Part shown: positions 15,970 through 58,603 of the stretch, piece by piece
Layout of the letters: the number at the start of each line of letters is the position of its first letter
How positions within the stretch are numbered: the stretch's first letter is position 1
NCBI GenBank assembly: GCA_964187785.1
Contig: OZ076409.1
Location: 27,716,001 to 27,780,000 of the forward strand
From: Amphiscolops sp. MND2022
Lineage: Eukaryota
Direction of reading: 5' to 3'
Length of the DNA: 64,000 nt
Position numbers and translations under genes: made by a program
Notes under the pieces: model-generated
The model's input: the letters and a program-made list of their open reading frames with translations, nothing else
Database searches by the model: none
Told to the model about the DNA's origin: nothing

Positions 15970-16520
15970 ATTTACCATTATTTTTTGTAGCTTTCGCTTT
16001 TCAAGTCTGCTTGTTGATCTTCAAAGAACAGATAGTTCGAGTGACAGAATGTTCGTCGTCAAAACATTTGTGGTCACTAATTTATTCGTGAATTTTAAAT
16101 GCGTCTACTACCAGATACCACTTCAATTCAAAAATTATCTAACACTTCAATTGAGCTCTTGAGCACAAGCATCAAATTGACATCTCCACTAACACCAACA
16201 TTCGGGCAAAAGGTTTTTGGAGCATTAGAGAATTCCATTTTCGGTTAATTCTTTAGTTTCAATAAGAATAAAATTGAAAAATTTCGTTGATCAATTAGAT
16301 TGGAATTGAAAAGAGTTCGTTTCCAATCACGGGTCAAATCATTTCGTCGTCCAAAATTTCGTGTCCTGATTTCCGCAAAAGGCTCAGAAAAAACTAGCAG
16401 GTGCACTGTAATGGCAGTCAATTAACTCAACGAAAAACTCGCGAAGCAACAGGATTTTACCCGTTCCGAAATATTTTGGCAATCTCATTTTAGAAAAATT
16501 ACCTCGTTAAATAATGCTTC

Positions 16521-18368
16521 TGTGGTAAGCACGAGTATCTGAGAATGTGAATCCGTCCTTCTCACGATTACCAAGTGTCTTACTCTTCAAATTGTTCCTA
16601 GAGTCCGCATTACGTAGAACTTCGGAATATCCTTCCGGTCTCTCGGACGGTATGTTCCATCTCTCTTTGGTCATATGTCCGGAATCGGCCATAAGGGCAT
16701 TTTGAATCTGGGGAAGAACTTGATTACTAATTGCCTCACTTATAGCTCTTTGAATCTGCACACTGACGCTGTTCATCATCTCATCCATCTCCCGAGATAT
16801 ACGGGAATTCAACTCACTCGACAATCTGTTGATCTCGGCGTTAGAACTACCTCTAGCTGAGTTCTGGCCTAGTTCGGCATTTGGACTAGGTCCATTGTTC
16901 TCAGAGTTAGATAACCTATTTTCATCCTCATTTTCAAATTCGTCGCCAAAAGGACTACCAGGTCTTCTGGCCTGGTTACTATTTAGACTCTCACTTCTTT
17001 CATTTCTATTGTAATGATTTCCTCCAAGCATTATGTCTAAATTCTCAATATCTGACAACATTTCTGCCTCTCTTGATTTTCTCGCTTTCTTTTGTTTCCT
17101 TGTGGTAGGCATTGAAATTGAACCGGGTTGAATAATTCAATTATTAAAACCGGAAAACTGACAAACGTCGTTGTAATAATTCGATCTTTATCAAAGCAAG
17201 GTTATGGAAATTGTGTCCCCCTTTGCAGGAAAGTAACTATATATACTCCTGAAAGATGACACTTACATTCCACGGATTCTTTGATCAAGATAATATCATG
17301 TGGTTATGTCCTCAACGGGTCATGTGACAAATATTATTACGGCATCGGGTATTAATACTTCAAAGCAACTATTTTAGGGTGATGTCCCGATTGGGAAAAT
17401 TCCTAACATTTTACAATCACAACTATTCATTCATCAAAGGCGGCATCAAAATATTTACTAGTGCATCAAATGAAATTTCCGTCTATCAAAGGAACTAGCA
17501 CTCATCATGAATGTAAACAACATTGCACACATTCCTTTCAGGCACGTGCCACCACGTGACCTAAAATTAGCTTTGCAACAGTGTGAAGCACATCATGTTA
17601 TTAGGCCTAATACGGCCAATTGTCATGTTAATAATTATATGCGTTGATTAACCGATTAGCCCCAAATATATGTACTGCATCACTTTTCAAAGGAACGTAA
17701 CAACTTCAATGGCCGGAAATAGCCGGCTAATTAATAGGCAAGTACTAATGAAATATGGCCTTAAGGGCCTAGCAAAAGGGTTGAGTATTAAGACGAAGCA
17801 TCAGTTATGAACAGAGATCTGGCTATTATGAAAACACAAATTCAACAAACATGACTTGTTTCATGTTAAATTATCACCTTATTTCAGTCTTGAACTAAGG
17901 GGACGGAACCGTCCATTTGACCAGTATATTAAAAGAGAAATATTAAAGCACGGCAACTGGCCTTACTCGGCCATTAGTTAGGTATCATCAATAGGCAAGA
18001 TTATATACTGCGATGTGATTGGCTGAGGCAACGTGCTCAAGTGACGCAATCGGTATAGTGCTGTTCGTCACTTGAACACGTTTCCTTTACTGCCTTACAG
18101 TTGCTCGTTTCATTGTATTTTCTATCGCTTTAAATTAGCGCCTTACAACTCCACCAACTCGATTGAAATTTCCAATTGTTAGATTTAACAGACTAATTGT
18201 ATATAAAATGAGCATCATCAATGATCATAATGCACAAAATAACAAAATGGCGTGAAAGTTTGATATCAATTGTAAGTTCTTAATAAATAGGTAAGGTTCC
18301 GGGTACATATTCTTGGCCAACTGCCGAAGTAGTTACTGTCGTGCCGTCACAGGCGGCAGCCTGCGACA
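16521..18368 (-). repeat. 3' LTR (1848 bp)
   Basis: Colinear with 30905-32752; only two substitutions noticed by eye (16524 and ~17449). Confidence 0.96.
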
Positions 18369-19062
18369 CTGCGGGTGTTATGAAAAGGAAGCATCCTGCA
18401 TTAAGCCCATTCTCGTAGGCTTCTTTCCTCAACTTCGTGATGTGCTCGGGCTCGTTCCTTGGGGTGGATCGTTCCATATACCATCTGACTCTCTCACCCT
18501 TGATTGCATCTACAGAGCGGCCGCAAACCATACACCCAGTATATTGGGTCTCGCTGACATTTTGGTAGGGCACCGAGTTCTGCACGTGATAAGACACATG
18601 AAAATCACTTACTGCGGGCTGGACCAGAGGAGTGTCCTGGCTTGGCCCCCTCTCATGGATTGGTGGAGACATCGGTGATTCTAGCACTGGTAGCAGCGTC
18701 TTGCAGAGCTCAATTCGTGATTTCTCCGCTCTCTTTGACGGGGCATAGCACCTTTCGTGATCAAAGTATTTTGTATCTAACTTGGGAGTCACATCTTGCC
18801 CCGGCTGTCTGGTGCTTGGTCCTGTGACCATTTCTTCCTCCATACTGCTAGTCGTCATGACACGTCCGGCAATTAGAATGGGGCTGGACACTACCTGCTT
18901 CTCCACCCTTCTGATCATTTCGTCCGTGTCCGTCGACCAGTCTGAGTCCAAATCAACTGAGGTTTCCTCATCGCTGCTTATGTAAATGACTGAATCGCCT
19001 GATGAGTCTGAGTCCAGTTCAGCCATCTCGAAGAGCTTTCCAGATTTTGCGTATTTATCCAT
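18280..19062 (-). CDS. Accessory ORF3 of the Gypsy element (~260 aa from first ATG); acidic N-terminus with VIYISSDEE motif; function unknown
   Basis: Uninterrupted ORF with TATAAA ~70 nt upstream. A positional counterpart with VIDISSDEE lies at 63201-63935. Confidence 0.75.
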   Translation of the reverse strand: MDKYAKSGKLFEMAELDSDSSGDSVIYISSDEETSVDLDSDWSTDTDEMIRRVEKQVVSSPILIAGRVMTTSSMEEEMVTGPSTRQPGQDVTPKLDTKYFDHERCYAPSKRAEKSRIELCKTLLPVLESPMSPPIHERGPSQDTPLVQPAVSDFHVSYHVQNSVPYQNVSETQYTGCMVCGRSVDAIKGERVRWYMERSTPRNEPEHITKLRKEAYENGLNAGCFLFITPAVSQAAACDGTTVTTSAVGQEYVPGTLPIY

Positions 19063-19110
19063 GATGAATTTTTTAGCTATTTTGAAGTTTATGAAGGCAA
19101 CTAGCTGCAA

Positions 19111-19957
19111 GTGAGATTCAAAGTTGAATGAATTTATAAAACTCTCCTCAGGCCGACTCGGGCCGTTTTCCCGGGGTTTCGTTTCAGCGGCAGAATCTTT
19201 GGTTAATCGGTCTGATCCGTCGTAAACTTTTCTGAATGGGGTTTCTCAGCGGCGGTTCACCCTTTGAATATCGGAACGCTGCCCCCCGAGCCCACCCTCT
19301 CAAGTAGGTAATCAGAGAGGTGTTAAGTTAACAACAACAAATAACTCCACTTCAAGAGGGTAATTAACATCAAGCTTGATAGCAATTAACGGCACGCGTC
19401 AGATAAAGCCTACTAAAATGGCTTCAGCCAATCAAATTTGAGCTTCGATAAATTTGAAAAATGAATAATAAAGATGGCGAAAAATAATAATTTGAATAAC
19501 TAAAATGGCGAAGATTCAGCTAAGGTAATTAGGGTAACTAGACAAAACGACAAAACAAAATAGGTCAACTGGCCATAACCGGCCTCTAACTAGTTAAGCT
19601 GTAAATAGCAAAGTTCTTTGCACATTTCGCTGGCAGACTCCATGTACCGAATAAATATGTAGATAATTAAATAATATTAGTCTGGTAATTTCTTCAGCCA
19701 CGACCTCCAACTTTTATCTCCTTTCAATTGTTAACACGCATTTAGTTCCATTACCATTTAAATTGTTTACATTTGTATCCTTCAGTCTTTGCTATTCCGC
19801 TTTCCTTATCTGGGTCTTCAACTTCGTTGCTGGCTTCTTCTTCCCTTTACGGAGCCCTCCGAGCCTCTTTCTTTCATCAGCCGTGTTCGGCCGTCTTCCC
19901 CATACTCTTCATCCGAATTTGGATAGAATCCCTTAGGACGAATTCTTCCACAACAGA
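19111..19957. promoter_or_regulatory. Putative internal bidirectional promoter between ORF3 and the antisense gene
   Basis: Lies between two divergent starts. TATAAA on the minus strand at ~19133-19138; AGCCAATCA (CCAAT box) at ~19426. Confidence 0.45.
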
Positions 19958-22900
19958 ATGTCTTCAAAAGCAGGTTGGTCTGGGTTTTCATATTTTTGAA
20001 CTAGTTTAACTTGATCAGAGCTAAGTTTGTTCACTAATTGCTTCCTGTTTCCACTACTTGGTGAACACGTGTTGATCACGTCCGTTCAGAATTTCGAACA
20101 CTTCCGGAAGTTTTCTAATGCGGCAAATGGATTTCTATCAAGGAAGCATACCGCCAAATTTCATCTCCTTCTGTTTAGAAAACCAGACAAGTGATGAGAC
20201 CCAAGTCCCAGCCAACCTAAGTCTAGACAACCCTGTTGAAACTGTAGTGTCAGCTCCTCATACCTCTGTTCTAACGCAATCCCAAGAGACCAAAGGGAGC
20301 ACGGATAGCGAGGTTGATGTGACTACTTTCGCCGATGAGATGGTAGACATGATGGAGAAAGCTCAGACGACAATTGCTCGCTCCCCAGATGATACTGCCA
20401 CTGTCACTTCCACTGGTGCGGATGACCGAACTCAGGAGAGGACTGAAACATTAGTTCAGGAACTAGTCAGGACAAGTACCCCAATGCTCCCTGATGAGGA
20501 AGTGTTGACCCAGTGTAACTTGTCTGCATTGGAGTCTGCACTCAGAGTAGCCACCTCGTCCAATTCCCAGCTCCCGGAACTTGTGGCCGTTGTAGCGTCA
20601 CCTCCCAATGATGAAACTTTAACCAGGGCGCAATCTGGAGATGATAACGAATCCTCAGTGTACGAAGTCCCTGCTCTACCCGTCGAGAAGCCCAAAGTCC
20701 TTTATCTTACGGATTTCAGTGGGAGTGAGCAAACTGCAGATGAAAGCAGCTTAGCAGGATGCCCTCCTTTGTACGGAACCAACCCACTGGAGATTGAGTC
20801 GGGAGCTGAAGCAGGGGGTGAGACTGGCATCAATCCCTCACATTCGGTGCTCAGTGACCAAGACGGCGTGCCCCGGAGACAGCAAGGTGACAGGTTTCCT
20901 GAATTATCAGGTAGGACTCGCGCCATCCTCAAAACCTACTTTGACGATGCACAGCCATTCTCTTTGCCCCTCGGACATCCAACTGTGGCTTTTACTGAGC
21001 CACAGATGTACCACCTCTTAAGGTCCCTTACTGACGAGACTATCCGAATGTCTTATACCACGATGGAGCGAATGGTGTTGGACGCAGTAAAGGGCACCCC
21101 GACCGTGGCCCCGTCAAGGACCAGTCACTTCCAGACTAGAGTTCGAGCCCCCACTCCCTTTGGATGCAGTGAATCAAGTGACGATGAAACCGATAACCTC
21201 ACTGGGGCCTGTCCCTTAGCTGGTTCCTCGTCTGGAGCAGAAGGCACTGATACATCCGCTGGGTTCGAAGACAGTGATAGTTCCGGAGAGATGGCTCTGA
21301 TCACTGAGACATTCAAGAAGAATCTCACGACGGATCTAGGACCAAATCCCTCACAGCAGTCCGGAAGCCAGTCCCAACAAGAAGAGCCTGGCCAATCAGG
21401 CTTCAGCAGCCAAGATGCCACGTTGCTGGAAGTCCGCGATGAGGCCCTGGAACGCAAATCCAGAACAACTACCAAGACGCAGAGGCAGAAACGCATCAAG
21501 CGCACCACCCACAGAGGAGTCCCCATGCGCGAAGAATTCTTTGCAAAAATAGGTTGGACAAGGTCCTTCATTTCTGGACCCGCGGACCCCATCCACAATC
21601 CTCTGATGGTTTGGTGTCACATTTGCAAGAGAAACTTTTCCATCCGCAGCAAAGGCACCATGGAAATCCTAAGACACCACCGTTCAGAGAGGCATCTAAG
21701 AAAGGACCAGAGGTGGCGATATGAGTACCTAAAGAGTGTTGATCCCGTCACCAAGCAAGTCCAGCATCGTGTAAGAGGACGAAACGGAAGGCTTCTGAAT
21801 AAGATTGAGTTAGCCAGAGAACTCCCACGTTTCATCCATTCAGAGCTAGTGGACATTGGGGAACGATTCCCCTTTTATGACGATTTTATCCAGGGACGGA
21901 CCACTGCCATAGTCACCCCAGAGTCCAGGTCCAGGACCCAATTGGGCATCGTCATTGACTTCCTCAAGGACCAAGGCGATTTTGCGATGCTACGCAATCT
22001 ATGGGCACGCCTTAGTTCCTTCACAGACTACCAAGCTACTCTCTGTGACTTCGACTGGGGGGAAGAACGTATGACGGTAAGTTTTTTATTTTCCCTACTT
22101 GTAGGTTGACTCAATCTATTCTGCATTTTTGAAACATTCGTCTGTTTTCCAGACAATCTTCCAGCACCTGTTCAATTGTGCTATGAGCGAAATAGCGGAG
22201 TGCGTGGCTGCAGAACAGTGCTTTGCCATAGAATTTGAAGACAGCAATGTCAATCGCTTCATGTCTCTTCGATTCTGGAAGGGGACTGAATTGTGTCGCG
22301 TCCTCGTCTGTCGCAGCGAGCTACCCTCTTCGGAATTGTCAGGAGAACTAGGGTCTCTCTCACGGCTCCTATCCGCAGTCTCCACCAATTGCGGTGTGGT
22401 GGCTTGTTCTGGCTGCCCCGTTGACTTTGTCAGGACAATCGACCATTCCCCACTCTTCTCAAGAGCAGTGCAGGCGTCCTTCCGGTTTGAGACCTTGTCC
22501 CTCTCCAGACTGATGCACAAACCCAGTTATAGTGTCTTCGGGCATATCGACTTCTTTTCGGTCCTACATGCCTTACTCATCACCCTGGGTGGATCTCTCT
22601 CTGAGGATTGGGTACTGCAGAGCCCCACCTTATCTCAGGTAATGACTTTCCGATTATGGTAGGAATGTTGTACCTTGGACAGATAGGAGACCCTGCTTAT
22701 TTCCCTTACGGACACTAATACAATACGTTATTTAGGCCATAGCTTCATGCAAATTGGATCTTCCCACTCTTCCTGCCCTATGTCAGGAACTTATCATCGT
22801 CTGGAAGTCCGTTGTGCGCTACCTAACGGAGCACTCACCCCGACAACAAGGACAGGGGGTTCGAACGAGAGTAAGTCCACTAAGAGATTGGTTTTCCTTC

Positions 22901-24295
22901 CCTTTAGGTCCCAACGTTAAATTTCGGTACCTTTCAAAATGTCTTCATAATCCAGGCTAACTGATATTTTCCCATTACAGGCGCAGAGCTTTGAGTGGAC
23001 CCTCATCTGTGATGAGTTCTTCACCATCAAATTGGAATTCTTTTGCAAGCTCGTCAGTGACTGTTAGTATCACTACTTAGCCTCCTCTAGGACGTGTCCT
23101 TAACTCATATATAAGGTCCGCCTTTGTTGTAGATACTTCCAGTTTTGCGGTCAACCTGCAACAGCGACGAGATGGGTCCTTCTTCCTGTGTGGTGAGGTC
23201 TCTCGTTACATACATCAACTCTGTTTCCGGATCTACACCGCTGATACAGTCCCATTGGAAAATGCATGGTTCCAGCTCCTCAATTTCCGTACTTCAGACG
23301 GAGTTTTCATCCCCGAGGCGGAGTTTCTGGCTCGTCTCAAGATCACCAACAAGGTCGCAACAGCCAGTAAGCAGAGGTCAGAAGGGGTCCATTCTGGTCA
23401 AAAGACTGAGCGTTCAGTAATTCAGAAGACAGCGGAGGCAATCAAGTCCAAGTTTGTCCAAGACGGGCAAAACTACCTGAAGTACCTATTGGGAGAGGTC
23501 CTCCATGAACCCGGTCTTAGCTCCAACATCATCAAAGGTCTGGCTGCTTTTGACCCAACTGTCATGCTCAAGAGGCCAATCGACATTGCTCTTAAGCACT
23601 TTGAGTTGTTATACAGCACTTTCCTCCTCCGCTCTTGGGTCCTCGAGGCCGATGAGTCAGCTTGTCGGGATGATTATTTGGCTCTTCTAGATCATCTTCG
23701 AGGGAATTACCCCCCTACCTTTGACGTCACCAGTGTCTCTCGAGACTTGATTGATTTCATGATGACCTTGGACTTCCTTCAGTCACGGGAGCGGCTTCTT
23801 TATTTGTTTAAGCTTTGCTGTCTGTGTGCAACCTCTGTTACCCCTACTTATCCAGTAGTAACTGCCGGGAGTGTGAGTACGGCGGGTCACCGAGGCAGAT
23901 TTACCGATGTTATTCTGCCTGTCCAGAGTTATGTAAGCTCAGTTCCTGGATCAGCCGCTTTCTGTTGTAATGAAGCTAATCTGTCCAAGTTTTCTTTATT
24001 CGCTTCCTCCTTTGGACGATCTGCCTTCTCAGCCGATTACGACCCTTGGACGTACGTTGACGATTTTGGCCGTTCCAAAATTTACAAATCGCTGCTGTCC
24101 ACCTACAAGTCCATTCTCTCTGTGCCTAAGGCAGTTTCCACTGAGGCAGGAACCAGGGGCGACGATAGTGTCGCCGATGAATGTGCTCTGAAAGCCCCCA
24201 GCGCTAGCAAGCGCAGGAGGATGAGTCGGAGCGCTTCCCGATCTAGGACCTCTTCTGTCGTGGATGAGTGTGTCCCCAGTTCTTCTAAAAACTAA
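19958..24295 (+). CDS. Spliced antisense accessory gene, ~1259 aa: disordered acidic N-terminus, zinc finger, degenerate hAT-transposase-like body. Exons 19958-19973, 20179-22076, 22153-22638, 22736-22870, 22981-23062, 23133-24295
   Basis: All five introns are GT-AG with consistent phases (1,0,0,0,1), giving 3780 nt with no internal stop. WCHICKRNFSIRSKGTMEILRHHRSERH zinc finger. Homologous to 58801-61628. The 16-nt first exon is the least certain part. Confidence 0.85.
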
Positions 24296-24570
24296 ATGTA
24301 CATATGTAATTATGTACAACCAGTTGTAAACTTTGTTGATTTCTTTCCGTTTCTGTTATATTTTTTATTTCTTGTTGTTGTATTTATTTGTATTCCATTT
24401 GTTGCCAATTTCTTGATCCCATATTATTCCCTTGAAGGGATCATTGTCAAACGTCCCGATATTTATTCAAAAAATACCACTTTCTGGGACTGAAAAGAAA
24501 AGAAGTAATGATAAAAAGGAAGAGAAAAGATAGTTCGGCGTCCGTTTTCGGGCACAATTTAATCTTTCCT

Positions 24571-27500
24571 TTAGTATCTAAAGTCTTCTGAGTAGTTAGG
24601 GGTAGGATTAGGCCTGAGATTATATTTCCCAGCTCTAGGACTCAGATTTTCATTTCCTTCTTCATTTTGCGATATTTCGGGCACGATAATATCATCCCCC
24701 CTATTTGGAGAATTTTCTGCATCTTTTTCATTCATCAAATTTCTTTCTGGAAAATTTGCATCGTCTTTTAGTCCTTCAGCCGTATTCGGCACAGATTTTT
24801 CTTGGGTTTTTGGGGAAACGGCCGGATTTGGCCAATCAAATTCGTCATTTCTAATAGCTTCAGTAGCTTTATTTCTTTTAGTGACGTCATCAATTAATCG
24901 TTCATTCCGGCTATGCGACGCGCGGTCAGTGAAATTTGATTCGTCACTCGTGATTACATAATCAACTTCATTCTCGCTTGCGTCACTTGCATTCGGTTCT
25001 GCCGTAGTCGGCTGTTCGTCATTCGTCAAGCTGGTCGGAATAGGCTCGCTGCCTCGTGTGTCTAGTTGTTCGCCAAAGTTTGTTTCCCACGTTATTACAT
25101 ACAAGTCGTCTTGCGGAATGATTATTTCGTCATCCGGCTGTAGACGCTGTTCTCGGAAATTGTCCTCAAGTGGTTGATTTGGCACAAACTTTTTGAGACG
25201 AATTCGATGCAATATCTGCGTTTTATTTGTATTAAGCCTTCGGACAATGTAATTCTCATTAGGTAAGGTCTTTTGGACTATAAATGGTCCAACCCAACGA
25301 TAATCCCTGAATGGAATTTTTGATCCTTGATGATCCGCTTTCGGCTGTAATACAAAACAGTAATCGCCCTCTTTGATTGGGGCGGCTTTTGCTTTTCGGT
25401 CGTAATACTCCTTATATTTGATATATGACTGCATGATGTTCTGTTTAGTTTTGTCAATAAGGAGTTTGGTCCGGTTCTGGATTTCTTCTGCGAATTCAGT
25501 AGTCGGATGGATTTGCTCATTTGGATTCATTCCAAGTTTGTGGTCCAAGATGTTGTATGGGATTCTCCCATGGAACACTCTTGTGGGTTCGCATCCGATA
25601 CTGGCATGATAACTTGTGTTATGATTGAGAACTGCTAAAGGCAAATATTTATGCCATTGTCGGCGATATTCCCCACATGCCATTTTCAGGTTCGTTTTTA
25701 ATGAGGCATGCGTTCGCTCTAATTTCCCGATGGTTTGCGGGTGTTTCGTCGTTGCACATTTTAGGGTAATGCCTAAAATCTGTGTAATTTCCGCAATGAT
25801 CGTGGAAGTAAAGGCAGTTCCTTTGTCCGTAATGAGCGTCGTCGGTAGGTAAGAATGTTTCGTCATAATATCAATGATTGCTTTAGCTACATTGATCGCT
25901 GATGCGTCTGTAAGAGGATAAGCAAACAAGTATCGAGAGAAGACATCAATTGCAGTTAAAACATTTTCGTATCCTCCACTTGGGGGAAGATTCGGCAATA
26001 AGTCGATTTGCATGGCGTCTTCAGGTCCAAGGTCCCATTCGGGCAAATTGAGTAGTTCAGGCGTGATTGTTGCGTTTGGGACTCGTTTGTCCTTCGCACA
26101 TTGTTCACACCCTTCTACCCACTTTTTGACATGTTTCGCCATGTTAGGGTAATAATATCTCTGTCTGATCTCCTGCAGCATCTTTGAGATGCCTGGGTGC
26201 TTGTGGGCTGTCCCGTGTAGGGACTGAAGCAATTCTGGCAGCAAGTGTTGCGGGAGAAGAATTTGATGATATTTTATATTCCCGGTTTCGTCAAAATATT
26301 GCCTTGTTAGGATGTCTTCCTTGATGACAATTCTTTCCAGATTATTAGCATAATGTCTGTATCGAGCATCCTGTTGCAGTATGTTTTCTGAGTACTCTTC
26401 ATGAAGGAGCTTCGCCTTCAGTTGTTGCAATACTGTATCTTTGGATTGCTCAATAATTATCTGGTTGGTTTTCCTCAGTCGGACTTGTATTTCAGGTTGT
26501 TGTTTGACTAAGTTAGTATAGAGAGTTTGTATTGTAACAGTAGGTTCTTCATTTACAGGATTTTTCCTGATTGCTTCTTTTCTCGCCCAATATTGTTCTT
26601 CAGTCTCATCATCGTCGTTTGTGTAGAAGATTTGCTCTTCCTGTGAGACTCCGGCTGATTGGACGTTTATTTCTATTGGCAGTGTTTGTACATCTTCGAG
26701 GATTTTCATGACTAATTTGTCCTTCGGTTCGGCTTCCAATCGAGATAAATAATCTGCTGCCGTATTTTGTGCTCCTGGGATGTGCGCGATGACAAAATTG
26801 AACTGAATTACATAGTCACACGCATTCCACAGGGCTGGGGGTACGATTTTCGTTTGGAAAAATCTTGTTACGGCTTTGTTGTCAGTTAGGATTATGACCG
26901 GTTTCGGCGCTCCCCAGAAGATATGTCCAAATTCTTTAAATGCGAAGTAGATCGCGAGAAATTCTTTTGCATAAATCGACATCTTTATCTGGGCTGGGGT
27001 GAAGGTTTTTGAACCATAAGCGACCGGTGCATATGATTTGCGGATTGACGTGAATTTCTGACTCGGGTCATCTTCGATGAGTACTGCATATCCTGCAGCA
27101 CCAAAACTTGCATCTGTCATTAGGGCAATTTGTTTGTTCGGGATGGGTTGTTGTAGGGCCAAGTCGCAGCATTTGTCCAGAGCTCGATTGATTTCCTCAA
27201 ATTGTTGAACTAGTTCCTTGGACACTAGGACTTTTTCGTCACTCTTGAGCATCTTGTAGAACGGAGCAAGGCGTTCAGACAGTCTTGGGACATAATTCCG
27301 GTAGTAGTTCAAGAAACCCAAATATCTTTGTAGAGCCTTTTTCGACTTCGGAAATTTGGTCTTTTCTAGGAAATTCTGAACATTCTGCCGTTGGGGCTTG
27401 ACGCCTTGTGCGGTTATTGTCCTGCCAAGGAAATCGATTTCTGTGGCACCAAAATGGCACTTGTGCATTGTCAATTTAAGGCCTGCCTCCTGGATGCATT

Positions 27501-29784
27501 TGAAAGTTGCTCTCAGGTTAGCAATAAGGTGATCGGCGTCGTTGGCTGCGATGCCAATATCGTCTACATACTGTGCACATTGGTCCGCTTTTATGACTTT
27601 GTCTAGGTACTCTCTCATAAAGCTGGAGAATGCGGACAGTGCCCTACTAAGGCCTTGTGCCAGTCGTCTATAGGCGAATGTGCGGCTTGCAAAGTTAAAG
27701 GCCAGCATTTCGATTGAACGTTGGTCGGCCATGGGAAGGCAATGATACGCCTGTGAACAGTCTAACTTGCAAAAGAGTTTCTTGCCTGCCATGTGTTGGG
27801 CGGCATCGACTAGGGTACTGACTGGATGATTATTGTTAATATAATCATCGGAGATTAGGTTGTTGATTTTTCTCAAGTCAACCAGAAGTCTCAGTTTCCC
27901 ATTCGGTTTCTTTTGTGCAAATATTGGACTGGCGTATTTCGAGAACGGTAGGGTAGTTATGATGCCATATTTGTGGAGCATGGCTAATTCGACTAAAATG
28001 TCCTCCTTCAGGTTAATCGGCGCAGGGAGGCTTTGGCTGTAGGCTGGGGAATCGTCCTTGGGTGTCAACTTCACTTTGAATTCCTCATTCATGCCTATGT
28101 CGAATCTATGTCTTGCAAAGATATCATGGAACTCCACTAGTAATTGTTCAATTTTCTCTTTTTCATCAGGTGTCAATGTGGAGTCTTTCCAGTCAAAGTT
28201 TTCTAGGAATTTTGCCTTAGATTCCTCATCCTTTGTGGGATCGAGTGATTCTAGGTCCTGTAGGGCTTGTAATTCACGGAGTATCCTTTTTTGGATTGGT
28301 GTATGTTCTTCTGGGTTCCCTGGGTTCTCTGGGGTTGGGAACCAGTAGTTTTCGGTATTTTGTGGATTCTTGTTAGTCTTGATGAGACTACTGACGTAAT
28401 GGGCTGCCTGTTCTTGGTCATTTTGTAACAAATGCCAGGTTGAAGCTGGGTCTACTGGTTTGACGTATTTCATCTGCTCTGGCGTCATGACTGAGAAGCT
28501 GGCAATATGGAGTCCCTTTTTGAGCTTGTAAGGGTGGTCTGTGAAATTATTCACCGGTATCTGTATATTGCCATCGTTCAAAGTAACCAGGGCTGGGCAG
28601 AATGTGATGTCTCCTTCTTCATGAAGAAGGTCGCTCGGTTGTAAAATCCCTGTGACCGTGTTTTCAGGGTACAATAGGGAATTGGTCCTAATTAGGACTC
28701 TGTCGTTTGGCGGAATGGTTATTTCGGTAGGGTTCAAAATTGGTTCAAGTACATTCGAGTATTTGTGATCAGCTGTTTTGAGCTGCATCGAAAAGAATGG
28801 AAAGTTCAGTATTCCTTGCCTCATGTCCAAAACTGTATGGTTTCTCTGTAGGAACATCAGTCCTATAATTGGTCCTGTCAAGTGTTCCATTACTATGAAA
28901 ATTTCATGGAATTCTATGTCACCAACTTCAAATTTGAGCTCTATAGTACTCTTTGGAGTCTCTAGTTGCCCATTTGCGACCATTATCTGGAAATTCGGAG
29001 GTGGACCTTCCCGGATGACTGATTGCGGCGATAGGAGCCTGATTTTCCGGAGGTCCATTTCAGGGATTGCACTGGATAAGGCACCCGTGTCAATAAGTCC
29101 ATCTATGGTCAGTTCCCCAAAGTCCATAGGGAAATACAGCATGCGTTTTTTGCATTTCAAGTTTATGTTGGTGGACAGAGGAATACAGTCTGGTTCTCCT
29201 TCTCTGGTGATGAGGATGTTCTGGAACTGACTTTCATCAAGTAGTGAGTGTGGTATTGTTTCTTCTTGTTTGTCTGAGGTCTCGGTCCCCAAGGGGTTTG
29301 GGAATACCGGATGGCTTGTACCATCATTCATCTGCCATGTTTCAATCAATGCTCTGGTTTTCTTGTTATGGGTGATTGGTGGATTGTCATGGACTGATCT
29401 GTTATAGAGTTCTATATCATCAATAACGTATTGGAATTGCAACAAATCCTGGTTATAAAGTTCGGTGTCCCAATAGGGATCTCGTCCATAGTCAGGATCT
29501 ATGTAGGTAGGGTTGTAGTCATCTACCAAGGGAATGGGCCTGAATCGGCTATTGAAAGCAGATGTGTAATCAGGGTCCCATACAGGAATTGGTTTTTGGA
29601 ACAAATGGGTATTATTATAGGTAATAATGGTAGCTTTTTCCATCTGTTGCTGCCAGACAACAGAAGGGTAGCCCATCAGTTGCTGCTGATAGTTATGAAA
29701 GCTTTGAGTTGGAGGGTCCGATTTGATGTATTGTCGGACAGAGACTAATTGGTTATATTGGAGTCGTGGCGAAGTTAGTTTTTT
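24571..29784 (-). CDS. pol: Pol polyprotein (aspartic protease, RT, RNase H, integrase), expressed as Gag-Pol by -1 frameshift
   Basis: LIDTGA; LDCSQAY..YVDD; TDAS..ADYLSR; H-x4-H..CEQC; IDL..TDKG..LERTH; GPF motif. The frame is open from the gag stop to the ATG at 29676. Confidence 0.97.
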   Translation of the reverse strand, partial: KKLTSPRLQYNQLVSVRQYIKSDPPTQSFHNYQQQLMGYPSVVWQQQMEKATIITYNNTHLFQKPIPVWDPDYTSAFNSRFRPIPLVDDYNPTYIDPDYGRDPYWDTELYNQDLLQFQYVIDDIELYNRSVHDNPPITHNKKTRALIETWQMNDGTSHPVFPNPLGTETSDKQEETIPHSLLDESQFQNILITREGEPDCIPLSTNINLKCKKRMLYFPMDFGELTIDGLIDTGALSSAIPEMDLRKIRLLSPQSVIREGPPPNFQIMVANGQLETPKSTIELKFEVGDIEFHEIFIVMEHLTGPIIGLMFLQRNHTVLDMRQGILNFPFFSMQLKTADHKYSNVLEPILNPTEITIPPNDRVLIRTNSLLYPENTVTGILQPSDLLHEEGDITFCPALVTLNDGNIQIPVNNFTDHPYKLKKGLHIASFSVMTPEQMKYVKPVDPASTWHLLQNDQEQAAHYVSSLIKTNKNPQNTENYWFPTPENPGNPEEHTPIQKRILRELQALQDLESLDPTKDEESKAKFLENFDWKDSTLTPDEKEKIEQLLVEFHDIFARHRFDIGMNEEFKVKLTPKDDSPAYSQSLPAPINLKEDILVELAMLHKYGIITTLPFSKYASPIFAQKKPNGKLRLLVDLRKINNLISDDYINNNHPVSTLVDAAQHMAGKKLFCKLDCSQAYHCLPMADQRSIEMLAFNFASRTFAYRRLAQGLSRALSAFSSFMREYLDKVIKADQCAQYVDDIGIAANDADHLIANLRATFKCIQEAGLKLTMHKCHFGATEIDFLGRTITAQGVKPQRQNVQNFLEKTKFPKSKKALQRYLGFLNYYRNYVPRLSERLAPFYKMLKSDEKVLVSKELVQQFEEINRALDKCCDLALQQPIPNKQIALMTDASFGAAGYAVLIEDDPSQKFTSIRKSYAPVAYGSKTFTPAQIKMSIYAKEFLAIYFAFKEFGHIFWGAPKPVIILTDNKAVTRFFQTKIVPPALWNACDYVIQFNFVIAHIPGAQNTAADYLSRLEAEPKDKLVMKILEDVQTLPIEINVQSAGVSQEEQIFYTNDDDETEEQYWARKEAIRKNPVNEEPTVTIQTLYTNLVKQQPEIQVRLRKTNQIIIEQSKDTVLQQLKAKLLHEEYSENILQQDARYRHYANNLERIVIKEDILTRQYFDETGNIKYHQILLPQHLLPELLQSLHGTAHKHPGISKMLQEIRQRYYYPNMAKHVKKWVEGCEQCAKDKRVPNATITPELLNLPEWDLGPEDAMQIDLLPNLPPSGGYENVLTAIDVFSRYLFAYPLTDASAINVAKAIIDIMTKHSYLPTTLITDKGTAFTSTIIAEITQILGITLKCATTKHPQTIGKLERTHASLKTNLKMACGEYRRQWHKYLPLAVLNHNTSYHASIGCEPTRVFHGRIPYNILDHKLGMNPNEQIHPTTEFAEEIQNRTKLLIDKTKQNIMQSYIKYKEYYDRKAKAAPIKEGDYCFVLQPKADHQGSKIPFRDYRWVGPFIVQKTLPNENYIVRRLNTNKTQILHRIRLKKFVPNQPLEDNFREQRLQPDDEIIIPQDDLYVITWETNFGEQLDTRGSEPIPTSLTNDEQPTTAEPNASDASENEVDYVITSDESNFTDRASHSRNERLIDDVTKRNKATEAIRNDEFDWPNPAVSPKTQEKSVPNTAEGLKDDANFPERNLMNEKDAENSPNRGDDIIVPEISQNEEGNENLSPRAGKYNLRPNPTPNYSEDFRY

Positions 29785-31496
29785 GACTCATCATTAGAGG
29801 ATGAGGATTGGGAGCTTGGTGATGTTGATTTGTTTTGTGGTTTCTGCGCCTTTGAATTGGGCTTACCATCATTGGCGTCATCTGGTCTGGTGCGTTTGGG
29901 TTTGAGATGTGCACCAGCGCCTTGCCAACATCTTTCTTCGGGGTGGTTCTTTTTACCACAAGTGCCACACTCCGGGTACGTCTTTTTCTGAGTCTGTTTG
30001 CCTTGTTGGGCATCTTTTTCTTTTTTCTTCTTCAGTTTCTCGCAATCCTTGACCATATGGCCCTTTTCCTTGCAATAATTGCACGTTATGTCACTCATCT
30101 GTACATTGGAAGGAACAGTTTTTGTCTTGCCAACCGAAGATGTCATTGACGCTATAGGTAGGTCGTCAGACTCCTCGAGTGCATTCAGTTCCAGTTCTCT
30201 TTCTAGATGAGCGACGATTTCATCGTAAGAGCCATTCTCTAGTCTAGCCATGTTGACTGATCTTTTGAGCTTTGGTGGCAGTTTTGCGTATAGGAGACTG
30301 TCGATCATTTTTTGGGCATTGTCTCCAAAGGCTTTTTCTGCTCCTTGGTTAAGCTCTTCAAGGAAGTCTGGCAATTTGGTCGTGTTAGGGTCAAAGACTA
30401 GGCGATGCCATTTGTGTTTTGCAGTTGCCTGAGATTCAGGTTTGACGTACTTTCGTCTGAAAATAACAAGTACATCCTCAAGAGTTTGTCTATTGGCGTT
30501 CCTGATGTTTCTGAATGTTTGGAGTGCATTCTTTCGCAGCAAGGAATGGAAGTGATTGATTTTCATTTGTTCGGTCATCTCAGGCTGCATCTTGATCATC
30601 GTATGGAATAAATCCTCAAACAGCTCGAACTTCTCACTTTTTCCGTCGAATGTCATTGTGTTGGAGTTGACTGGGCGGATAGTGAGTTGTTGGGCCGTTG
30701 GACGGTTCTGCATACTAGTCAAAACATCTGCTAGCCTGTTGATGGGGTCTTGTTCTGATGCCAGAGCGGGTCGTTCTTGTGCTGGGATCGTCGTGTCGAG
30801 CAGCGGAAGGTCATCGCAGGATCTGTTGAGATGACTAGTGGATGGCATTCGTCCTGTGAGAAACTCAGGAACTTCAATTGGAGATTCGTTTTCTCCTGTC
30901 ACCATGTCGTAAGCACGAGTATCTGAGAATGTGAATCCGTCCTTCTCACGATTACCAAGTGTCTTACTCTTCAAATTGTTCCTAGAGTCCGCATTACGTA
31001 GAACTTCGGAATATCCTTCCGGTCTCTCGGACGGTATGTTCCATCTCTCTTTGGTCATATGTCCGGAATCGGCCATAAGGGCATTTTGAATCTGGGGAAG
31101 AACTTGATTACTAATTGCCTCACTTATAGCTCTTTGAATCTGCACACTGACGCTGTTCATCATCTCATCCATCTCCCGAGATATACGGGAATTCAACTCA
31201 CTCGACAATCTGTTGATCTCGGCGTTAGAACTACCTCTAGCTGAGTTCTGGCCTAGTTCGGCATTTGGACTAGGTCCATTGTTCTCAGAGTTAGATAACC
31301 TATTTTCATCCTCATTTTCAAATTCGTCGCCAAAAGGACTACCAGGTCTTCTGGCCTGGTTACTATTTAGACTCTCACTTCTTTCATTTCTATTGTAATG
31401 ATTTCCTCCAAGCATTATGTCTAAATTCTCAATATCTGACAACATTTCTGCCTCTCTTGATTTTCTCGCTTTCTTTTGTTTCCTTGTGGTAGGCAT
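29775..31496 (-). CDS. gag: Gag, 573 aa, two CCHC zinc knuckles
   Basis: TFDGKSEKFELFE capsid-like start; CNYCKEKGHMVKDC and CGTCGKKNHPEERC. Confidence 0.95.
   Translation of the reverse strand: MPTTRKQKKARKSREAEMLSDIENLDIMLGGNHYNRNERSESLNSNQARRPGSPFGDEFENEDENRLSNSENNGPSPNAELGQNSARGSSNAEINRLSSELNSRISREMDEMMNSVSVQIQRAISEAISNQVLPQIQNALMADSGHMTKERWNIPSERPEGYSEVLRNADSRNNLKSKTLGNREKDGFTFSDTRAYDMVTGENESPIEVPEFLTGRMPSTSHLNRSCDDLPLLDTTIPAQERPALASEQDPINRLADVLTSMQNRPTAQQLTIRPVNSNTMTFDGKSEKFELFEDLFHTMIKMQPEMTEQMKINHFHSLLRKNALQTFRNIRNANRQTLEDVLVIFRRKYVKPESQATAKHKWHRLVFDPNTTKLPDFLEELNQGAEKAFGDNAQKMIDSLLYAKLPPKLKRSVNMARLENGSYDEIVAHLERELELNALEESDDLPIASMTSSVGKTKTVPSNVQMSDITCNYCKEKGHMVKDCEKLKKKKEKDAQQGKQTQKKTYPECGTCGKKNHPEERCWQGAGAHLKPKRTRPDDANDGKPNSKAQKPQNKSTSPSSQSSSSNDESKN
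29778..29784 (-). promoter_or_regulatory. -1 ribosomal frameshift slippery heptamer A AAA AAC
   Basis: Minus strand reads TCA AAA AAC TAA. The -1 frame continues CTA ACT TCG...CTG ATG GGC into pol without a stop. Confidence 0.85.
30893..30904 (-). promoter_or_regulatory. Putative primer binding site TGGTGACAGGAG
   Basis: Starts with TGG immediately after the 5' LTR end; 11/12 match to a tRNA-Leu-type PBS (TGGTGTCAGGAG) recalled from memory. Confidence 0.6.
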
Positions 31497-32752
31497 TGAA
31501 ATTGAACCGGGTTGAATAATTCAATTATTAAAACCGGAAAACTGACAAACGTCGTTGTAATAATTCGATCTTTATCAAAGCAAGGTTATGGAAATTGTGT
31601 CCCCCTTTGCAGGAAAGTAACTATATATACTCCTGAAAGATGACACTTACATTCCACGGATTCTTTGATCAAGATAATATCATGTGGTTATGTCCTCAAC
31701 GGGTCATGTGACAAATATTATTACGGCATCGGGTATTAATACTTCAAAGCAACTATTTTAGGGTGATGTCCCGATTGGGAAAATTCCTAACATTTTACAA
31801 TCACAACTATTCATTCATCAAAGGCGGCATCAGAATATTTACTAGTGCATCAAATGAAATTTCCGTCTATCAAAGGAACTAGCACTCATCATGAATGTAA
31901 ACAACATTGCACACATTCCTTTCAGGCACGTGCCACCACGTGACCTAAAATTAGCTTTGCAACAGTGTGAAGCACATCATGTTATTAGGCCTAATACGGC
32001 CAATTGTCATGTTAATAATTATATGCGTTGATTAACCGATTAGCCCCAAATATATGTACTGCATCACTTTTCAAAGGAACGTAACAACTTCAATGGCCGG
32101 AAATAGCCGGCTAATTAATAGGCAAGTACTAATGAAATATGGCCTTAAGGGCCTAGCAAAAGGGTTGAGTATTAAGACGAAGCATCAGTTATGAACAGAG
32201 ATCTGGCTATTATGAAAACACAAATTCAACAAACATGACTTGTTTCATGTTAAATTATCACCTTATTTCAGTCTTGAACTAAGGGGACGGAACCGTCCAT
32301 TTGACCAGTATATTAAAAGAGAAATATTAAAGCACGGCAACTGGCCTTACTCGGCCATTAGTTAGGTATCATCAATAGGCAAGATTATATACTGCGATGT
32401 GATTGGCTGAGGCAACGTGCTCAAGTGACGCAATCGGTATAGTGCTGTTCGTCACTTGAACACGTTTCCTTTACTGCCTTACAGTTGCTCGTTTCATTGT
32501 ATTTTCTATCGCTTTAAATTAGCGCCTTACAACTCCACCAACTCGATTGAAATTTCCAATTGTTAGATTTAACAGACTAATTGTATATAAAATGAGCATC
32601 ATCAATGATCATAATGCACAAAATAACAAAATGGCGTGAAAGTTTGATATCAATTGTAAGTTCTTAATAAATAGGTAAGGTTCCGGGTACATATTCTTGG
32701 CCAACTGCCGAAGTAGTTACTGTCGTGCCGTCACAGGCGGCAGCCTGCGACA
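30905..32752 (-). repeat. 5' LTR (1848 bp)
   Basis: TGTCG...CGACA terminal inverted repeat; direct repeat of 16521-18368. Confidence 0.96.
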
Positions 32753-34549
32753 GCTTCTAATAATAATCCTTTTCAAAATTAAACTCTCTTGGAACACTTT
32801 TACTCATACGGAAATAAAATTATTGTCCAAATTCGAAATAGATGCGAGCTCCTTGTGGAAGTCTGTTTGAAGCAACCAAACCTTGCATCTTTGAAAAAAG
32901 CCTTCAACGAAAAACCTTACGTTTTCGTTTTTAGACGAATGGTATGTGCTGTTCAATTTATTCGCTACTACTGTACGCCGTAATGTTTCCCGGCCACAAT
33001 TGTTTCAGCGATAGCATTTTTAAGGGCACTGGGATAGAAAATTCACTTCAAAAATTGGACCAAAATATCAGTTTTTAAAAGTTATTTGCCCTGTGTTTAT
33101 GTCCGGAAGATCCAATATAGGTGGAGGAAAATAGACTTTCGGATAAATTCAACTTGTATAAGAAAACAGTTTTCCGAGTTATAACGGATGAAAGTTTTTA
33201 AATAATTGTGGAAATGACCGACACTTTCAACGGCACTGCGGTTTTTTTGAAGAAATAATTTCGTTTTTTTTTGCGAACTTAGAGGGTCTCTTTCTGAGAG
33301 TTTTTCTGCACTTTGAGTCTTTTCCTGACAAAAAAATTATTTTGAAAATTGGATTGTTTGTTTCGCATAATTTCAGCGCAGTAAATTTGATAAAGTTTTC
33401 AACAATAATGTTCTTTCACATATTCAAAGACATATTTTTGGTCCTATGGAAATGATGAGAGATTTTTTTATAATTGTGGAAAATTCGTTCGGTTTTTTCG
33501 GCACTGTGAGACTTTTCTTGTGAAACTTTTTTTTGGTCAAAAGGTACCCTCTCCACTTTTAAAATGTTTTCGGCGTGCAAAAACATTTGTGAGCTTGAAG
33601 CTCCTTTTTCTGTACTCAGACACTTTTTCTGAAGAAAAAAGTTTTGGAAAACTTTCATTTTCAAAAGACGTTTCGGATGTTTCCAGTTAGAAAAAAACGG
33701 TTTTCAAGTCTTATGAGCATCATTCCAGTTTTTTCCACAAATGAAAATTTAAATGATATTTATTAAACTTGGTTTTTGAATCTTCAGCAGGACGTCAGCG
33801 TGTGCTGTTCCCGGTTCGTTACTTTTCGTTTCATTTTGAAACGAGGGATGAACCTTAGTTTTAAAGCGGCAACTGATGTCATTTTCACTATAACATCCAT
33901 TTCGGTGGAACATGCGCTATCATGCGCTATATCAAAAATGGATAGAATTATAACAATTTGTCTAGATCTTGGAGGGAGGTATGCCGGAATTTGCATTCAT
34001 TCAATGTCGAACGCTCGCATCCTTCGCATTCTAACAGTTTTGTTTGATCACAAGACTTTTGCGTAGGTACTTGCGCATTACGGACTAAAGTTTGTTTTTG
34101 TCGTCGCGCAACCTTCTCCAAAAACCCAAAAAACGAATCCAAAGTTGATATTTTATTTCGCTTCTACCTAAGTCTCAGTAAATAATAGCTTTTGGAATAC
34201 ATTTTCGAACGTTCAAAAGCATTCGCAAAAAAAGTTCGATGAAAAACTTCAATCTTTTCAAAACGTTCATGTTCACAGCTTTCGCAGTCAAAGGTTAGGA
34301 TCGGTAAAATAGTGAGTCGAACAATTGTAGTTTTGTCTGTTTTGCGAGTTCATGACCACTTGTTTTGGCTCTAAATTTTAAAACCACCTTCTTAGCTTTG
34401 TCAACGTTGTTTTTGAGTGAAAGGTTTTGTTGTACTTGAAAATTAACCCAAAATTCCAAACACTGTGAGCTCTTTCAATTGAGCTGTTGTTTTTTAAACA
34501 TCACTGACACTTTACGAACCTTTCCAATGGAGAAGATGATATATTTTGC

Positions 34550-41000: not shown

Positions 41001-41002
41001 AT

Positions 41003-56923: not shown

Positions 56924-58081
56924 GATCCACTATAATATTCCTTTTCATAACCAAAAGTTTTCATTGTACGCTCACTGGTCATGTATTTATACTTCGTAAT
57001 TGACCTATACTGACCGATTAACTTTAACCGAGATGTATATTACATCTAGTTAGGCACAAGACTATTGGAAAGATGTATTTACGTTCGCTCTCATGGTCAC
57101 AATTTCTGATTTCACTTTTTACCTCTTTTTAACTTTTCGCAAACTACTTGGCGATACAAGTAATTGCCTGTGGGGAGTTACACGTGTTAAGAAACAGAGT
57201 GCGATTCAAGTACATTGGATCCGACTACGTCAAGATTGACCAGTGAATCTAGACAGCAATTGTTCAACTTAAGCAAGTGTTCATAAACGGTCCACCGTAC
57301 GGCGCACCGAATTCAGATCAGAGTAAAACTTGGTCATTTTGTTTCGCCTACCCGGACACCAGCAATTGGGCGGATATCAACTACTTGGGAGAACAATATC
57401 ATAGGGGAGGACAACTGGGTGATCACCTGTTTACTAGACAAAAAGAAAGCACTGCACAGAGGTGTGAAAGCGTACAGTGAAAGACAGCGGTTCAAAGCAC
57501 TGCTGGTGTTCAAGTTTTTAAGCTTATGTGTGCTACAAATGGGTCTCATCTGGGCTCGCTTATGTAATTAGTGTAATGTGGGGGTTGGGCTACTGCTGCA
57601 GTCCTTCGGAAATTTTGCTAGATTTTGACTTATGGGTACATAGTGGGCTCTGGGCTTGCACTACGTCAACATCTTAGAAGTTGTATTCAGAAAAGAAAAT
57701 CTGGGTTTTCTTAGTTAGCTAGTGCATTCCGGGTTATTGGACTACTTCAAAATGACTGAAAAGGACCACACATTATAGAAGAACTGGCAATCATTTGAAG
57801 AGGAGAGAAGGGAAGAGAAGAGAGAAGAGAAGTTAATTTCCGCATTACCGCGGGGTTGAAGTTCTGCTTTTCCAAGTCGGCGCCCTTTCGGATACTATCT
57901 CCCCATTGCAAGCTATGGTACCATATTTGTAACCTAGTGGTCAAGCTATGGTGGGCTTGAAGCGGTTATTTCAAAGTGACTGCTCCCCGTTGCTTTTTTT
58001 GTTTTGCTTTTCCCGGCAAATGCAGTAATTGTTGTCATTAACCATACCACTAAGCTAGGGATGAAGGACTTGCATAAGGAC

Positions 58082-58603
58082 ACCCTCCATAGAATTCGCC
58101 TAAGACTATATGCGCCCAATCAACGAGTACCTGACGTAACAGTCAAAGTGGAAGATCAGCTTCCAGATCCTGAGGTTAAAACAACCCATGATGATTGGTA
58201 CGCGCAAGCTTGGGAAACCGAATTCGGAGAAGTTCTGTTCGGGAACTCCACGGAAAAAGAAAACAACGAAGCTACCATTATGGAAGTGCCAACTGAAGAC
58301 GGAGATACAACAGAGCGAGAACCAGTTATAACAACTGCGGACGAAAACTCAACGGCAGAAAAAATTTACTCTAGAAACAATACGTCATTCAATTTGGACG
58401 TCAGCGATAATCCTTACATAACAACCCCACCGCCTATGGAAAGCCCCCCAACACCGCCTACAATACCACCTATAGTTGTTGGATACAATCCGAGAAAAAC
58501 GGGAAGATACAACTTACGGCCTAACCCTAAACCTAACGCGCATCCTGATTTCCGGATGCTCGACGCAATCGTCACCGAAGAAAGCTCTCAAGCCTCAAAC
58601 TAG
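58082..58603 (+). pseudogene. C-terminal tail of Pol (post-integrase)
   Basis: LHRIRLRLYAPNQ..DDWYAQAWETEFGE..GRYNLRPNPKPNAHPDFR matches LHRIRLKKFVPNQ..DDLYVITWETNFGE..GKYNLRPNPTPNYSEDFR. Confidence 0.9.

What the first reader, a model, noticed from the sequence alone, without database searches (positions are those of the whole stretch)
18280..19114. ORF3 carries a conserved SUMO-interacting-motif-like peptide and overlaps the 3' LTR
Seen: two otherwise dissimilar ORF3 proteins share an N-terminal hydrophobic-core plus acidic motif (SVIYISSDEE / LVIDISSDEE). The element 1 ORF ends 89 nt inside the LTR, like nef overlapping U3. No signal peptide or TM helix is evident, so it is not env. Known: V/I-x-V/I-V/I-type cores followed by S-S-D-E-E are typical phospho-SIMs, and SUMO is involved in transposon silencing. 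Inference: a candidate counter-defence protein.
Basis: partly seen in the sequence, partly recalled or inferred. Interest (0 to 1): 0.7.

Follow-up and report, generated by a model that had tools for sequence, protein, structure and literature searches.

The report
Retrotransposon accessory protein with SUMO-docking motif
A large jumping-gene family carries an extra, well-conserved protein of no recognised family whose short SUMO-docking-type motif is kept even where the rest has diverged, suggesting these elements tap into the host's SUMO-based silencing machinery, though binding and function are untested.

Summary
ORF3 (19062-18280, minus strand, 260 aa) of a young 16.2-kb Ty3/Gypsy element ends 89 nt inside the 3' LTR; a second element has a 244-aa ORF at the same position. 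ORF3 is a real gene under protein-level selection (220 and 67 homologues). The SIM-like motif is among the best-conserved six-residue windows of each family (rank 2 of 255, 1 of 237), survives in 7 of 10 homologues at about 30% identity, and is the only thing the two families share, with different codons. It meets the sequence definition of a phospho-SIM in a disordered region. Family A adds a His/CxxC/Cys helical-hairpin domain without Pfam, PDB or fold match; no env features. ORF3 points away from a spliced antisense gene shared by both elements. SUMO binding (about 0.75) and transcription are untested; counter-silencing (0.4) is inference, with self-repression and targeting as rivals. New variant of a known kind.

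The parts
18280..19062 (-). ORF3 of element 1 (family A), 260 aa, same sense as gag-pol; last 89 nt (from residue 232) inside the 3' LTR
18964..18990 (-). SIM-like motif VIYISSDEE, residues 25-33, in a region with pLDDT under 50
18343..18603 (-). C-terminal conserved domain (about residues 154-240): His159, Cys177-x2-Cys180, helical hairpin 184-222, Cys238 (encoded inside the LTR); candidate zinc site (inference)
19107..19138 (-). candidate internal promoter of ORF3: TATAAA at 19138-19133 and initiator-like TCACTTGC at 19114-19107; the same 8-mer lies 59 nt before the ATG of element 2 (63142); function untested
16521..18368 (-). 3' LTR, 1848 nt; no purine tract directly upstream
30905..32752 (-). 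5' LTR, 1848 nt; holds the first 592 nt of gag
16516..16520 (.). 5-bp target-site duplication, left copy
32753..32757 (.). 5-bp target-site duplication, right copy
30893..30904 (-). primer-binding-site-like TGGTGACAGGAG directly after the 5' LTR, inside the gag frame (tRNA-Leu type is recalled, not tested)
29775..31496 (-). gag, 573 aa, zinc knuckle; starts inside the 5' LTR
24571..29787 (-). pol: protease, RT, RNase H, integrase; overlaps the gag end with a slippery-type AAAAAAC at 29784-29778
20118..24295 (+). antisense, apparently spliced gene (open frames 20118-22109, 22105-22662, 23081-24295; low-GC GT-AG intron candidate 22077-22152); C2H2/BED-like finger as a lead only; exon structure not fully resolved
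63201..63935 (+). ORF3 of element 2 (family B), 244 aa; ends 95 nt past a putative LTR start at 63841, in the same codon phase as element 1
63219..63245 (+). SIM-like motif VIDISSDEE of element 2
58801..61815 (-). antisense gene of element 2, homologous to that of element 1 (22-24% identity in three stretches)
57980..58603 (+). integrase tail of element 2 (37% to element 1); no other pol or gag match was found elsewhere in the window

Best explanation
ORF3 is a non-envelope accessory adaptor protein of a family of large Ty3/Gypsy retrotransposons. SHOWN by sequence: it is a conserved gene; its N-terminal arm is acidic and predicted disordered and holds a selected hydrophobic-core + Ser-Ser-acid motif; family A has a conserved Cys/His helical domain behind it. 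INFERRED: it is transcribed from its own internal promoter into the 3' LTR; CK2 phosphorylates the two serines; the motif docks as a beta-strand in the SUMO groove (about 0.75); the C-terminal part binds zinc and makes a second contact (element DNA/RNA, the antisense protein or a host factor). Most likely purpose: to reach SUMO-coated silencing sites and compete with, or displace, host SIM-bearing silencing effectors, so that the element stays expressed.
For: Gene: 220 hits at E<=0.01 among 402 candidates, mostly 250-262 aa; substitutions more conservative than a random-mutation null (mean BLOSUM62 -0.08 over 79 pairs against -0.58 +/- 0.17 and -0.54 +/- 0.16), and 0.5-0.75% of 400 null runs stayed stop-free at that divergence. 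Motif: core kept in 87 of 95 family-A and 52 of 53 family-B rows with residues there; rank 2 of 255 and 1 of 237 windows; in 10 full-length homologues 28-34% identical to ORF3 the strict motif is in 7, a Pro-first form in 1, with the x position free (C, N, Y, W, I). The two window copies share 8 of 9 residues but 1 of 9 codons, with AGC versus TCC serines, so the match is at protein level. No such motif in gag, pol or six antisense frames tested (0 of 8). Definition of SIM and phospho-SIM: PMC9371903, PMC12295420 (passages). SUMO scaffolds recruit SIM-bearing effectors in Piwi silencing: PMC8490990 (passages). Viral antagonists with SIMs: PMC4092860, PMC8430037 (passages).
Against: No binding, localisation or expression data. 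2 of 10 distant homologues (P0306, P0330) have lost the hydrophobic core yet keep the Cys domain, so the motif is not essential in every lineage. In the diverse alignment the motif ranks only 26 of 255, behind the Cys domain. One SIM is a weak handle, and there is no RING or other recognisable effector. A basic nuclear-localisation-like cluster is in only 32 of 81 close and 1 of 17 diverse family-A rows (16 of 23 in family B). The host is unidentified, so SUMO-dependent silencing there is extrapolated from Drosophila. Nothing tested separates activation from repression. The stop-free test is biased, since the database holds only called ORFs. Genomic context of the homologues could not be read.
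Confidence: 0.4

Rival explanations
1. Same SUMO docking, opposite sign: ORF3 recruits SUMOylated co-repressors to its own LTRs or particles and limits activity (latency or copy-number control).
For: KSHV LANA1 uses a SIM to recruit SUMO2-modified KAP1 and hold latency (PMC8430037, passage). The sequence evidence fits either sign.
Against: The family is very abundant and recently active (the first 20 clusters stand for 837 member sequences, summed by hand; LTRs differ at 2 of 1848 positions), which fits a helper somewhat better, though not decisively.
Confidence: 0.2
2. SUMO docking serves targeting, not transcription: ORF3 tethers the integration complex or element RNA to SUMO-rich chromatin, nuclear bodies or pores.
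For: Two-handed adaptor anatomy; no chromodomain among the 12 Pfam families matched by pol; family B ends in an RG-rich, Cys/His tail that could bind nucleic acid.
Against: No evidence of contact with integrase or Gag; insertion sites could not be surveyed (no genome).
Confidence: 0.15
3. ORF3 is a foamy-virus-Tas-like transactivator or another adaptor whose motif binds something other than SUMO (acidic activation region, calcineurin PxIxIT-type or other beta-strand docking).
For: Internal-promoter layout next to the 3' LTR like foamy tas/bet, and Tas has an acidic activation domain (PMC3798896, passages); residues 1-100 are 21% D/E with a predicted helix at 45-59.
Against: Activation domains rarely keep one exact pattern across unalignable families; the residue before the core is not a conserved proline (the PxIxIT definition is recalled); the pattern core-S-S-acid is that of PML and Daxx.
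Confidence: 0.2
4. The ORF or the motif is incidental: an open frame kept by DNA-level constraints near a promoter and the LTR end.
For: The last 29 codons lie in the LTR, whose start is constrained for integration; loose SIM-like strings arise in 6-7% of shuffles and 17 times in the six frames of the window.
Against: Conservative substitutions and conserved length, different codons for the same residues, invariant cysteines at 30% identity.
Confidence: 0.03

Closest known systems
Phospho-SIMs of PML and Daxx
   Same: [VIL][VIL]x[VIL] core in a disordered region followed by serines and acids (PMC9371903, PMC12295420; passages)
   Different: here on a retrotransposon protein; family A often has an aromatic or Cys at x; binding unmeasured
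SIM-bearing herpesvirus regulators (HSV-1 ICP0, KSHV K-Rta, LANA1)
   Same: mobile-element protein that would dock on SUMO to change silencing of its own genome (PMC4092860, PMC8430037; passages)
   Different: no RING domain, one SIM found rather than several, no sequence or fold match
Plant Gypsy additional ORFs (Grande gene23, RIRE2, Retand, env-like ORFs)
   Same: extra ORFs between pol and 3' LTR, sense or antisense, some nuclear and with their own promoter (PMC7264820, parts 1-2 of 3 read)
   Different: here a sense non-TM ORF running into the LTR and a spliced antisense gene occur together, head to head; no homology detected
Foamy virus tas/bel2 (Bet); lentiviral nef
   Same: accessory gene next to the 3' LTR; internal promoter in foamy viruses (PMC3798896, passages); overlap with U3 in nef (recalled)
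   Different: no env, Ty3-type pol, no N-terminal glycine, no homology
VANC anti-silencing proteins of VANDAL/MuDR transposons
   Same: transposon-encoded accessory protein proposed to oppose silencing (PMC13547354, passages)
   Different: plant DNA transposons, MAIN-related fold; 'SUMO' occurs 0 times in that paper's main text
Burro giant Gypsy elements of planarians
   Same: animal Gypsy elements with accessory domains touching ubiquitin-like systems, one Ubi2/SUMO-like (PMC6431247, passages)
   Different: those are folded domains mostly in a giant polyprotein; here a short motif on a separate 3' ORF

Membership tests
SUMO-interacting motif (phospho-SIM) | core [V/I/L]-[V/I/L]-x-[V/I/L] | tested here: met
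   VIYI and VIDI; 87 of 95 and 52 of 53 rows; definition in PMC9371903
SUMO-interacting motif (phospho-SIM) | lies in an intrinsically disordered region | tested here: met
   pLDDT under 50 over residues 1-42, no secondary structure; family B not folded; low pLDDT is a proxy
SUMO-interacting motif (phospho-SIM) | flanking Ser/Thr and acidic residues (CK2-type sites) | tested here: met
   S-S-D-E-E after the core; core plus two S/T in 82 of 95 and 52 of 53; the CK2 rule S-x-x-D/E is recalled
SUMO-interacting motif (phospho-SIM) | binds SUMO, more strongly when phosphorylated | not testable with these tools
Ty3/Gypsy LTR retrotransposon | pol order protease-RT-RNase H-integrase, closest to Ty3 | tested here: met
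   Pfam; best solved relative Ty3 Gag-Pol, E 7e-48
Ty3/Gypsy LTR retrotransposon | LTRs with TG...CA, target duplication, primer-binding site | tested here: met
Ty3/Gypsy LTR retrotransposon | polypurine tract directly before the 3' LTR | tested here: inconclusive
   no purine run in the 40 nt before 18368, yet the LTRs are near-identical; a non-canonical primer is possible
Env / env-like ORF | signal peptide and transmembrane anchor | tested here: not met
   best hydropathy 19-mer 1.34; 1.6 or more in 2 of 81, 2 of 17 and 0 of 23 rows; no dedicated signal-peptide predictor was run
Env / env-like ORF | homology to a fusion glycoprotein | tested here: inconclusive
   no Pfam, PDB sequence or fold match; models are of modest confidence
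Nef | N-terminal myristoylated glycine | tested here: not met
   position 2 is D in ORF3; S, Q, E, N commonest in the family; feature recalled
SUMO-targeted ubiquitin ligase (ICP0, K-Rta type) | RING domain plus several SIMs | tested here: not met
   only His, CxxC and Cys are near-invariant; no RING in Pfam; one motif found in nearly all members that have it
Foamy virus Tas | binds and activates LTR and internal promoter | not testable with these tools
   no homology found; needs reporter assay

The most novel reading that the evidence does not exclude
Two unalignable accessory-protein families of one Gypsy lineage independently acquired, or alone retained, a phospho-SIM and use it to jam the host's SUMO-scaffolded piRNA/heterochromatin silencing, working with a co-encoded spliced zinc-finger protein that supplies sequence specificity: a two-gene, retrotransposon-encoded anti-silencing module aimed at SUMO.
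Probability: 0.25. Interest if true: 0.85.

Novelty: new variant of a known kind. Interest (0 to 1): 0.62.

Why it matters
Additional ORFs of LTR retrotransposons mostly have no known function (PMC7264820), and element-encoded counters to silencing are best known from plant DNA transposons. A nine-residue motif that can be mutated gives a direct test of whether a retrotransposon engages the SUMO step that Piwi silencing depends on. If true, it parallels herpesvirus SIM proteins and may help explain how this family reached at least hundreds of intact copies. The Cys/His hairpin domain matched no known family or fold in the libraries searched.

Tried and rejected
No whole genome held; cluster look-up could not be made, so names and context of homologues are unknown. 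No RNA holder listed for 18280-24600: no evidence on expression. No related loci in JGI metagenomes (0 of 222 pattern matches) or IMG/VR (0 of 42 twice). Pfam: 0 families for ORF3; 3 single-member weak hits among 17 rows. PDB sequence search with the diverse profile: 0 at E<=10. Fold searches: none at E<=0.001; best Z 4.6 on a generic hairpin; absence is not evidence of a new fold. ESM Atlas: ORF3 C-terminus 0.78 to zf-C17orf113 clusters, below the level shuffles often reach; antisense finger 0.86-0.89, BED/C2H2 lead only. Homodimer-with-zinc job: no verdict, score 0.00, alignment not used. Longer relatives of the last antisense frame: none among 5707 candidates (weak). Pfam on nine antisense stretches: nothing above cut-off. 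A SUMOylation site (psi-K-x-E, 54 of 81 close rows) was set aside: 7 of 17 in the diverse set and inside a helix. A recalled likeness to the HIPK2 SIM was not found in print by one search (0 papers) and stays recalled. Earlier scan findings: none. Literature: 10 searches (listings and abstract starts) showed no description of this ORF or of a SIM on a retrotransposon accessory protein; one search gave 4 papers, none containing 'LTR retrotransposon'. The library lacks most subscription papers and repeat databases; no supplements were read.

Full report
1. Setting. A self-comparison finds a 1848-nt direct repeat at 16521-18368 and 30905-32752 with 2 differences, TG...CA ends on the minus strand and a 5-bp target duplication. 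Between them lie gag (31496-29775) and pol (29787-24571) with protease, RT, RNase H and integrase in Gypsy order, closest to Ty3 among solved structures. This is a young, 16.2-kb Ty3/Gypsy element. Oddities: gag starts 592 nt inside the 5' LTR and reads through the LTR end and a primer-binding-site-like stretch, and no purine tract precedes the 3' LTR. The host is a eukaryote that no call identified; my recollection that such repeats resemble those of acoel worms is untested.

2. The observation. ORF3 runs 19062-18280 (260 aa) and ends 89 nt inside the 3' LTR. A second, 5'-incomplete element at 58-64 kb (integrase tail 37% identical) has an ORF at the same position (63201-63935, 244 aa) that runs 95 nt past a putative LTR start at 63841, in the same codon phase. 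The two proteins share VIxISSDEE and nothing else: BLASTP E 0.07; profile against profile aligns 10 columns, the motif. No transmembrane or signal-like hydrophobic stretch is present.

3. ORF3 is a real gene. Family A: 220 of 402 candidates scored, 120 listed; an HMMER search of the 50% representatives gave 362 hits, 150 listed. Family B: 67 of 492. All hits listed come from one source type and several share contig lengths across the families, so they may come from very few assemblies; breadth across species is unknown. Lengths cluster at 250-262 aa. Against 79 close homologues (mean identity 62%) substitutions score -0.08 in BLOSUM62, against -0.54 to -0.58 in a random-mutation null, where under 1% of 400 runs remain stop-free (the stop test is biased by ORF calling). 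Genomic context of homologues could not be read; one family-B protein is a fusion of a gag N-terminus (42% over 125 aa) to the LTR-encoded tail, which ties that family to such elements.

4. The motif is selected. Over all listed members a loose motif is present in 87 of 121 (A) and 50 of 68 (B), against 7.5% and 5.9% of shuffles; most misses are ORFs cut at the N-terminus. Among rows with residues in the motif columns the core holds in 87 of 95 and 52 of 53. It ranks 2 of 255 six-residue windows in 81 near-full-length A rows (chosen from the first 90 of 120), 1 of 237 in 23 B rows (chosen by hand from 67 plus the query), and 26 of 255 in the diverse 17-row set, where the rest of the first 100 residues averages 0.43 against 0.77. 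Of 10 full-length homologues at 28-34% identity to ORF3 and 28-49% to each other, picked from the 150 listed, 7 keep the strict motif, 1 has Pro first and 2 have lost the core. Hydrophobic positions exchange among V, I, L while x is free, the behaviour of a docking strand. The two window copies use the same codon at 1 of 9 positions, with AGC versus TCC serines, so this is no shared DNA element; convergence and deep common origin both remain open. The published SIM definition, core in a disordered region with flanking acids and CK2 serines as in PML and Daxx (PMC9371903, PMC12295420; passages), is met on every point that sequence can test; pLDDT is under 50 over residues 1-42.

5. The rest of the protein. 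Family A has a conserved C-terminal domain: His159, Cys177-x2-Cys180, a confident helical hairpin (pLDDT 94-96 over three blocks of ten residues) and Cys238, encoded inside the LTR; CxxC and the last Cys are in 10 of 10 distant homologues. Four candidate ligands suggest one zinc (inference; the geometry was not inspected). No Pfam, PDB-sequence or fold match was found. Family B is Ser/Thr/Pro-rich, often has a lysine cluster (16 of 23) and ends in a His/Cys, RG-rich tail.

6. Expression layout. ORF3 points away from an antisense gene (20118-24295) whose frames are broken by low-GC, GT-AG-bounded gaps and which is homologous, stretch by stretch, to the antisense frames of element 2 (22-24%). 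Antisense introns would survive reverse transcription of the sense RNA (inference). A TATAAA lies 24 nt before an initiator-like TCACTTGC, 52 nt upstream of the ORF3 ATG; the same 8-mer is 59 nt upstream in element 2, which has CCAAT boxes instead. A shared 8-mer in such windows is not significant alone, and in element 1 it could also be a splice acceptor. Transcription is untested.

7. Mechanism. Best reading (0.4): a nuclear adaptor that docks on SUMO through a CK2-tuned SIM and interferes with SUMO-scaffolded silencing. In Drosophila, Su(var)2-10 SUMOylation is proposed to scaffold SIM-bearing effectors for Piwi silencing (PMC8490990, passages); ICP0 and K-Rta use SIMs against SUMO-based defence (PMC4092860, PMC8430037; passages). 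Against: no binding or expression data, loss in 2 of 10 distant members, no effector domain, no conserved basic cluster in family A, unknown host. Rivals: self-repression as with LANA1 (0.2); a Tas-like activator or non-SUMO docking (0.2; PMC3798896, passages); targeting of particles or integration (0.15); incidental (0.03). SUMO binding itself I put at about 0.75.

8. Comparison and novelty. Extra sense and antisense ORFs between pol and the 3' LTR are known in Gypsy elements, with functions mostly unknown (PMC7264820, parts 1-2 of 3); planarian Burro elements carry ubiquitin-system domains (PMC6431247, passages); VANC is a transposon anti-silencer of other origin (PMC13547354, passages). PMC4276917 and PMC8909597 were seen as passages and add only background. 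Ten searches showed no report of this protein or of a SIM on a retrotransposon accessory ORF; the library is partial and no supplements were read. It is a member of Ty3/Gypsy, not env, not Nef, not a STUbL; it may work like a viral SIM protein. Verdict: observation confirmed and strengthened, interpretation partly supported; new variant of a known kind; interest 0.62.

Noticed in passing
window 30893-31630 (-): gag begins 592 nt inside the 5' LTR (TATA-like at about 31629, initiator-like TCAGTT at 31545) and reads through the LTR end and primer-binding site; the 3' LTR therefore carries a 201-aa gag N-terminal frame (17112-16507) that ends in flanking DNA.
   Followed up: partly
window 18369-18428 (-): No polypurine tract before the 3' LTR although the LTRs are 99.9% identical; the stretch is ORF3 coding. 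Distant homologues encode Gly-rich residues here, compatible with a purine-rich tract. How plus-strand synthesis is primed is unexplained.
   Followed up: partly
window 20118-24295 (+) and 58801-62500 (-): Spliced antisense gene in both elements with a CxxC...HxxxxxH finger; later frames recall a decayed hAT-type transposase (recalled, no call supports it). No Pfam family above cut-off; possibly as interesting as ORF3.
   Followed up: partly
window 45532-57339: Head-to-tail repeats of about 5.27 kb (92% identical) with long lysine-rich ORFs (47764-50310, 52600-55452) lacking Pfam matches for the one tested; BEL/Pao-like non-autonomous element is a recalled guess.
   Followed up: no
window 1-3509: Tandem repeat with a unit of about 1.68 kb, 92% identical.
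   Followed up: no
window 7661-8122 (+): Exon-like piece of a host major-facilitator transporter gene (Pfam MFS_1, E 3e-11).
   Followed up: no
window 38159-40970 (-): Broken frames that read like endonuclease and reverse-transcriptase pieces of a decayed non-LTR element (by eye); inverted repeat 39177-39458 / 40993-41274.
   Followed up: no
window 4486-4769, 8882-9189, 5321-6213: Two short inverted-repeat pairs (93% complementary, MITE-like) and a near-perfect 446-nt tandem duplication.
   Followed up: no
proteins P0153, P0157, P0187: Chimeric ORFs joining gag-like or antisense-gene pieces to the family-B ORF3 tail, pointing to rearranged or tandem copies elsewhere.
   Followed up: partly
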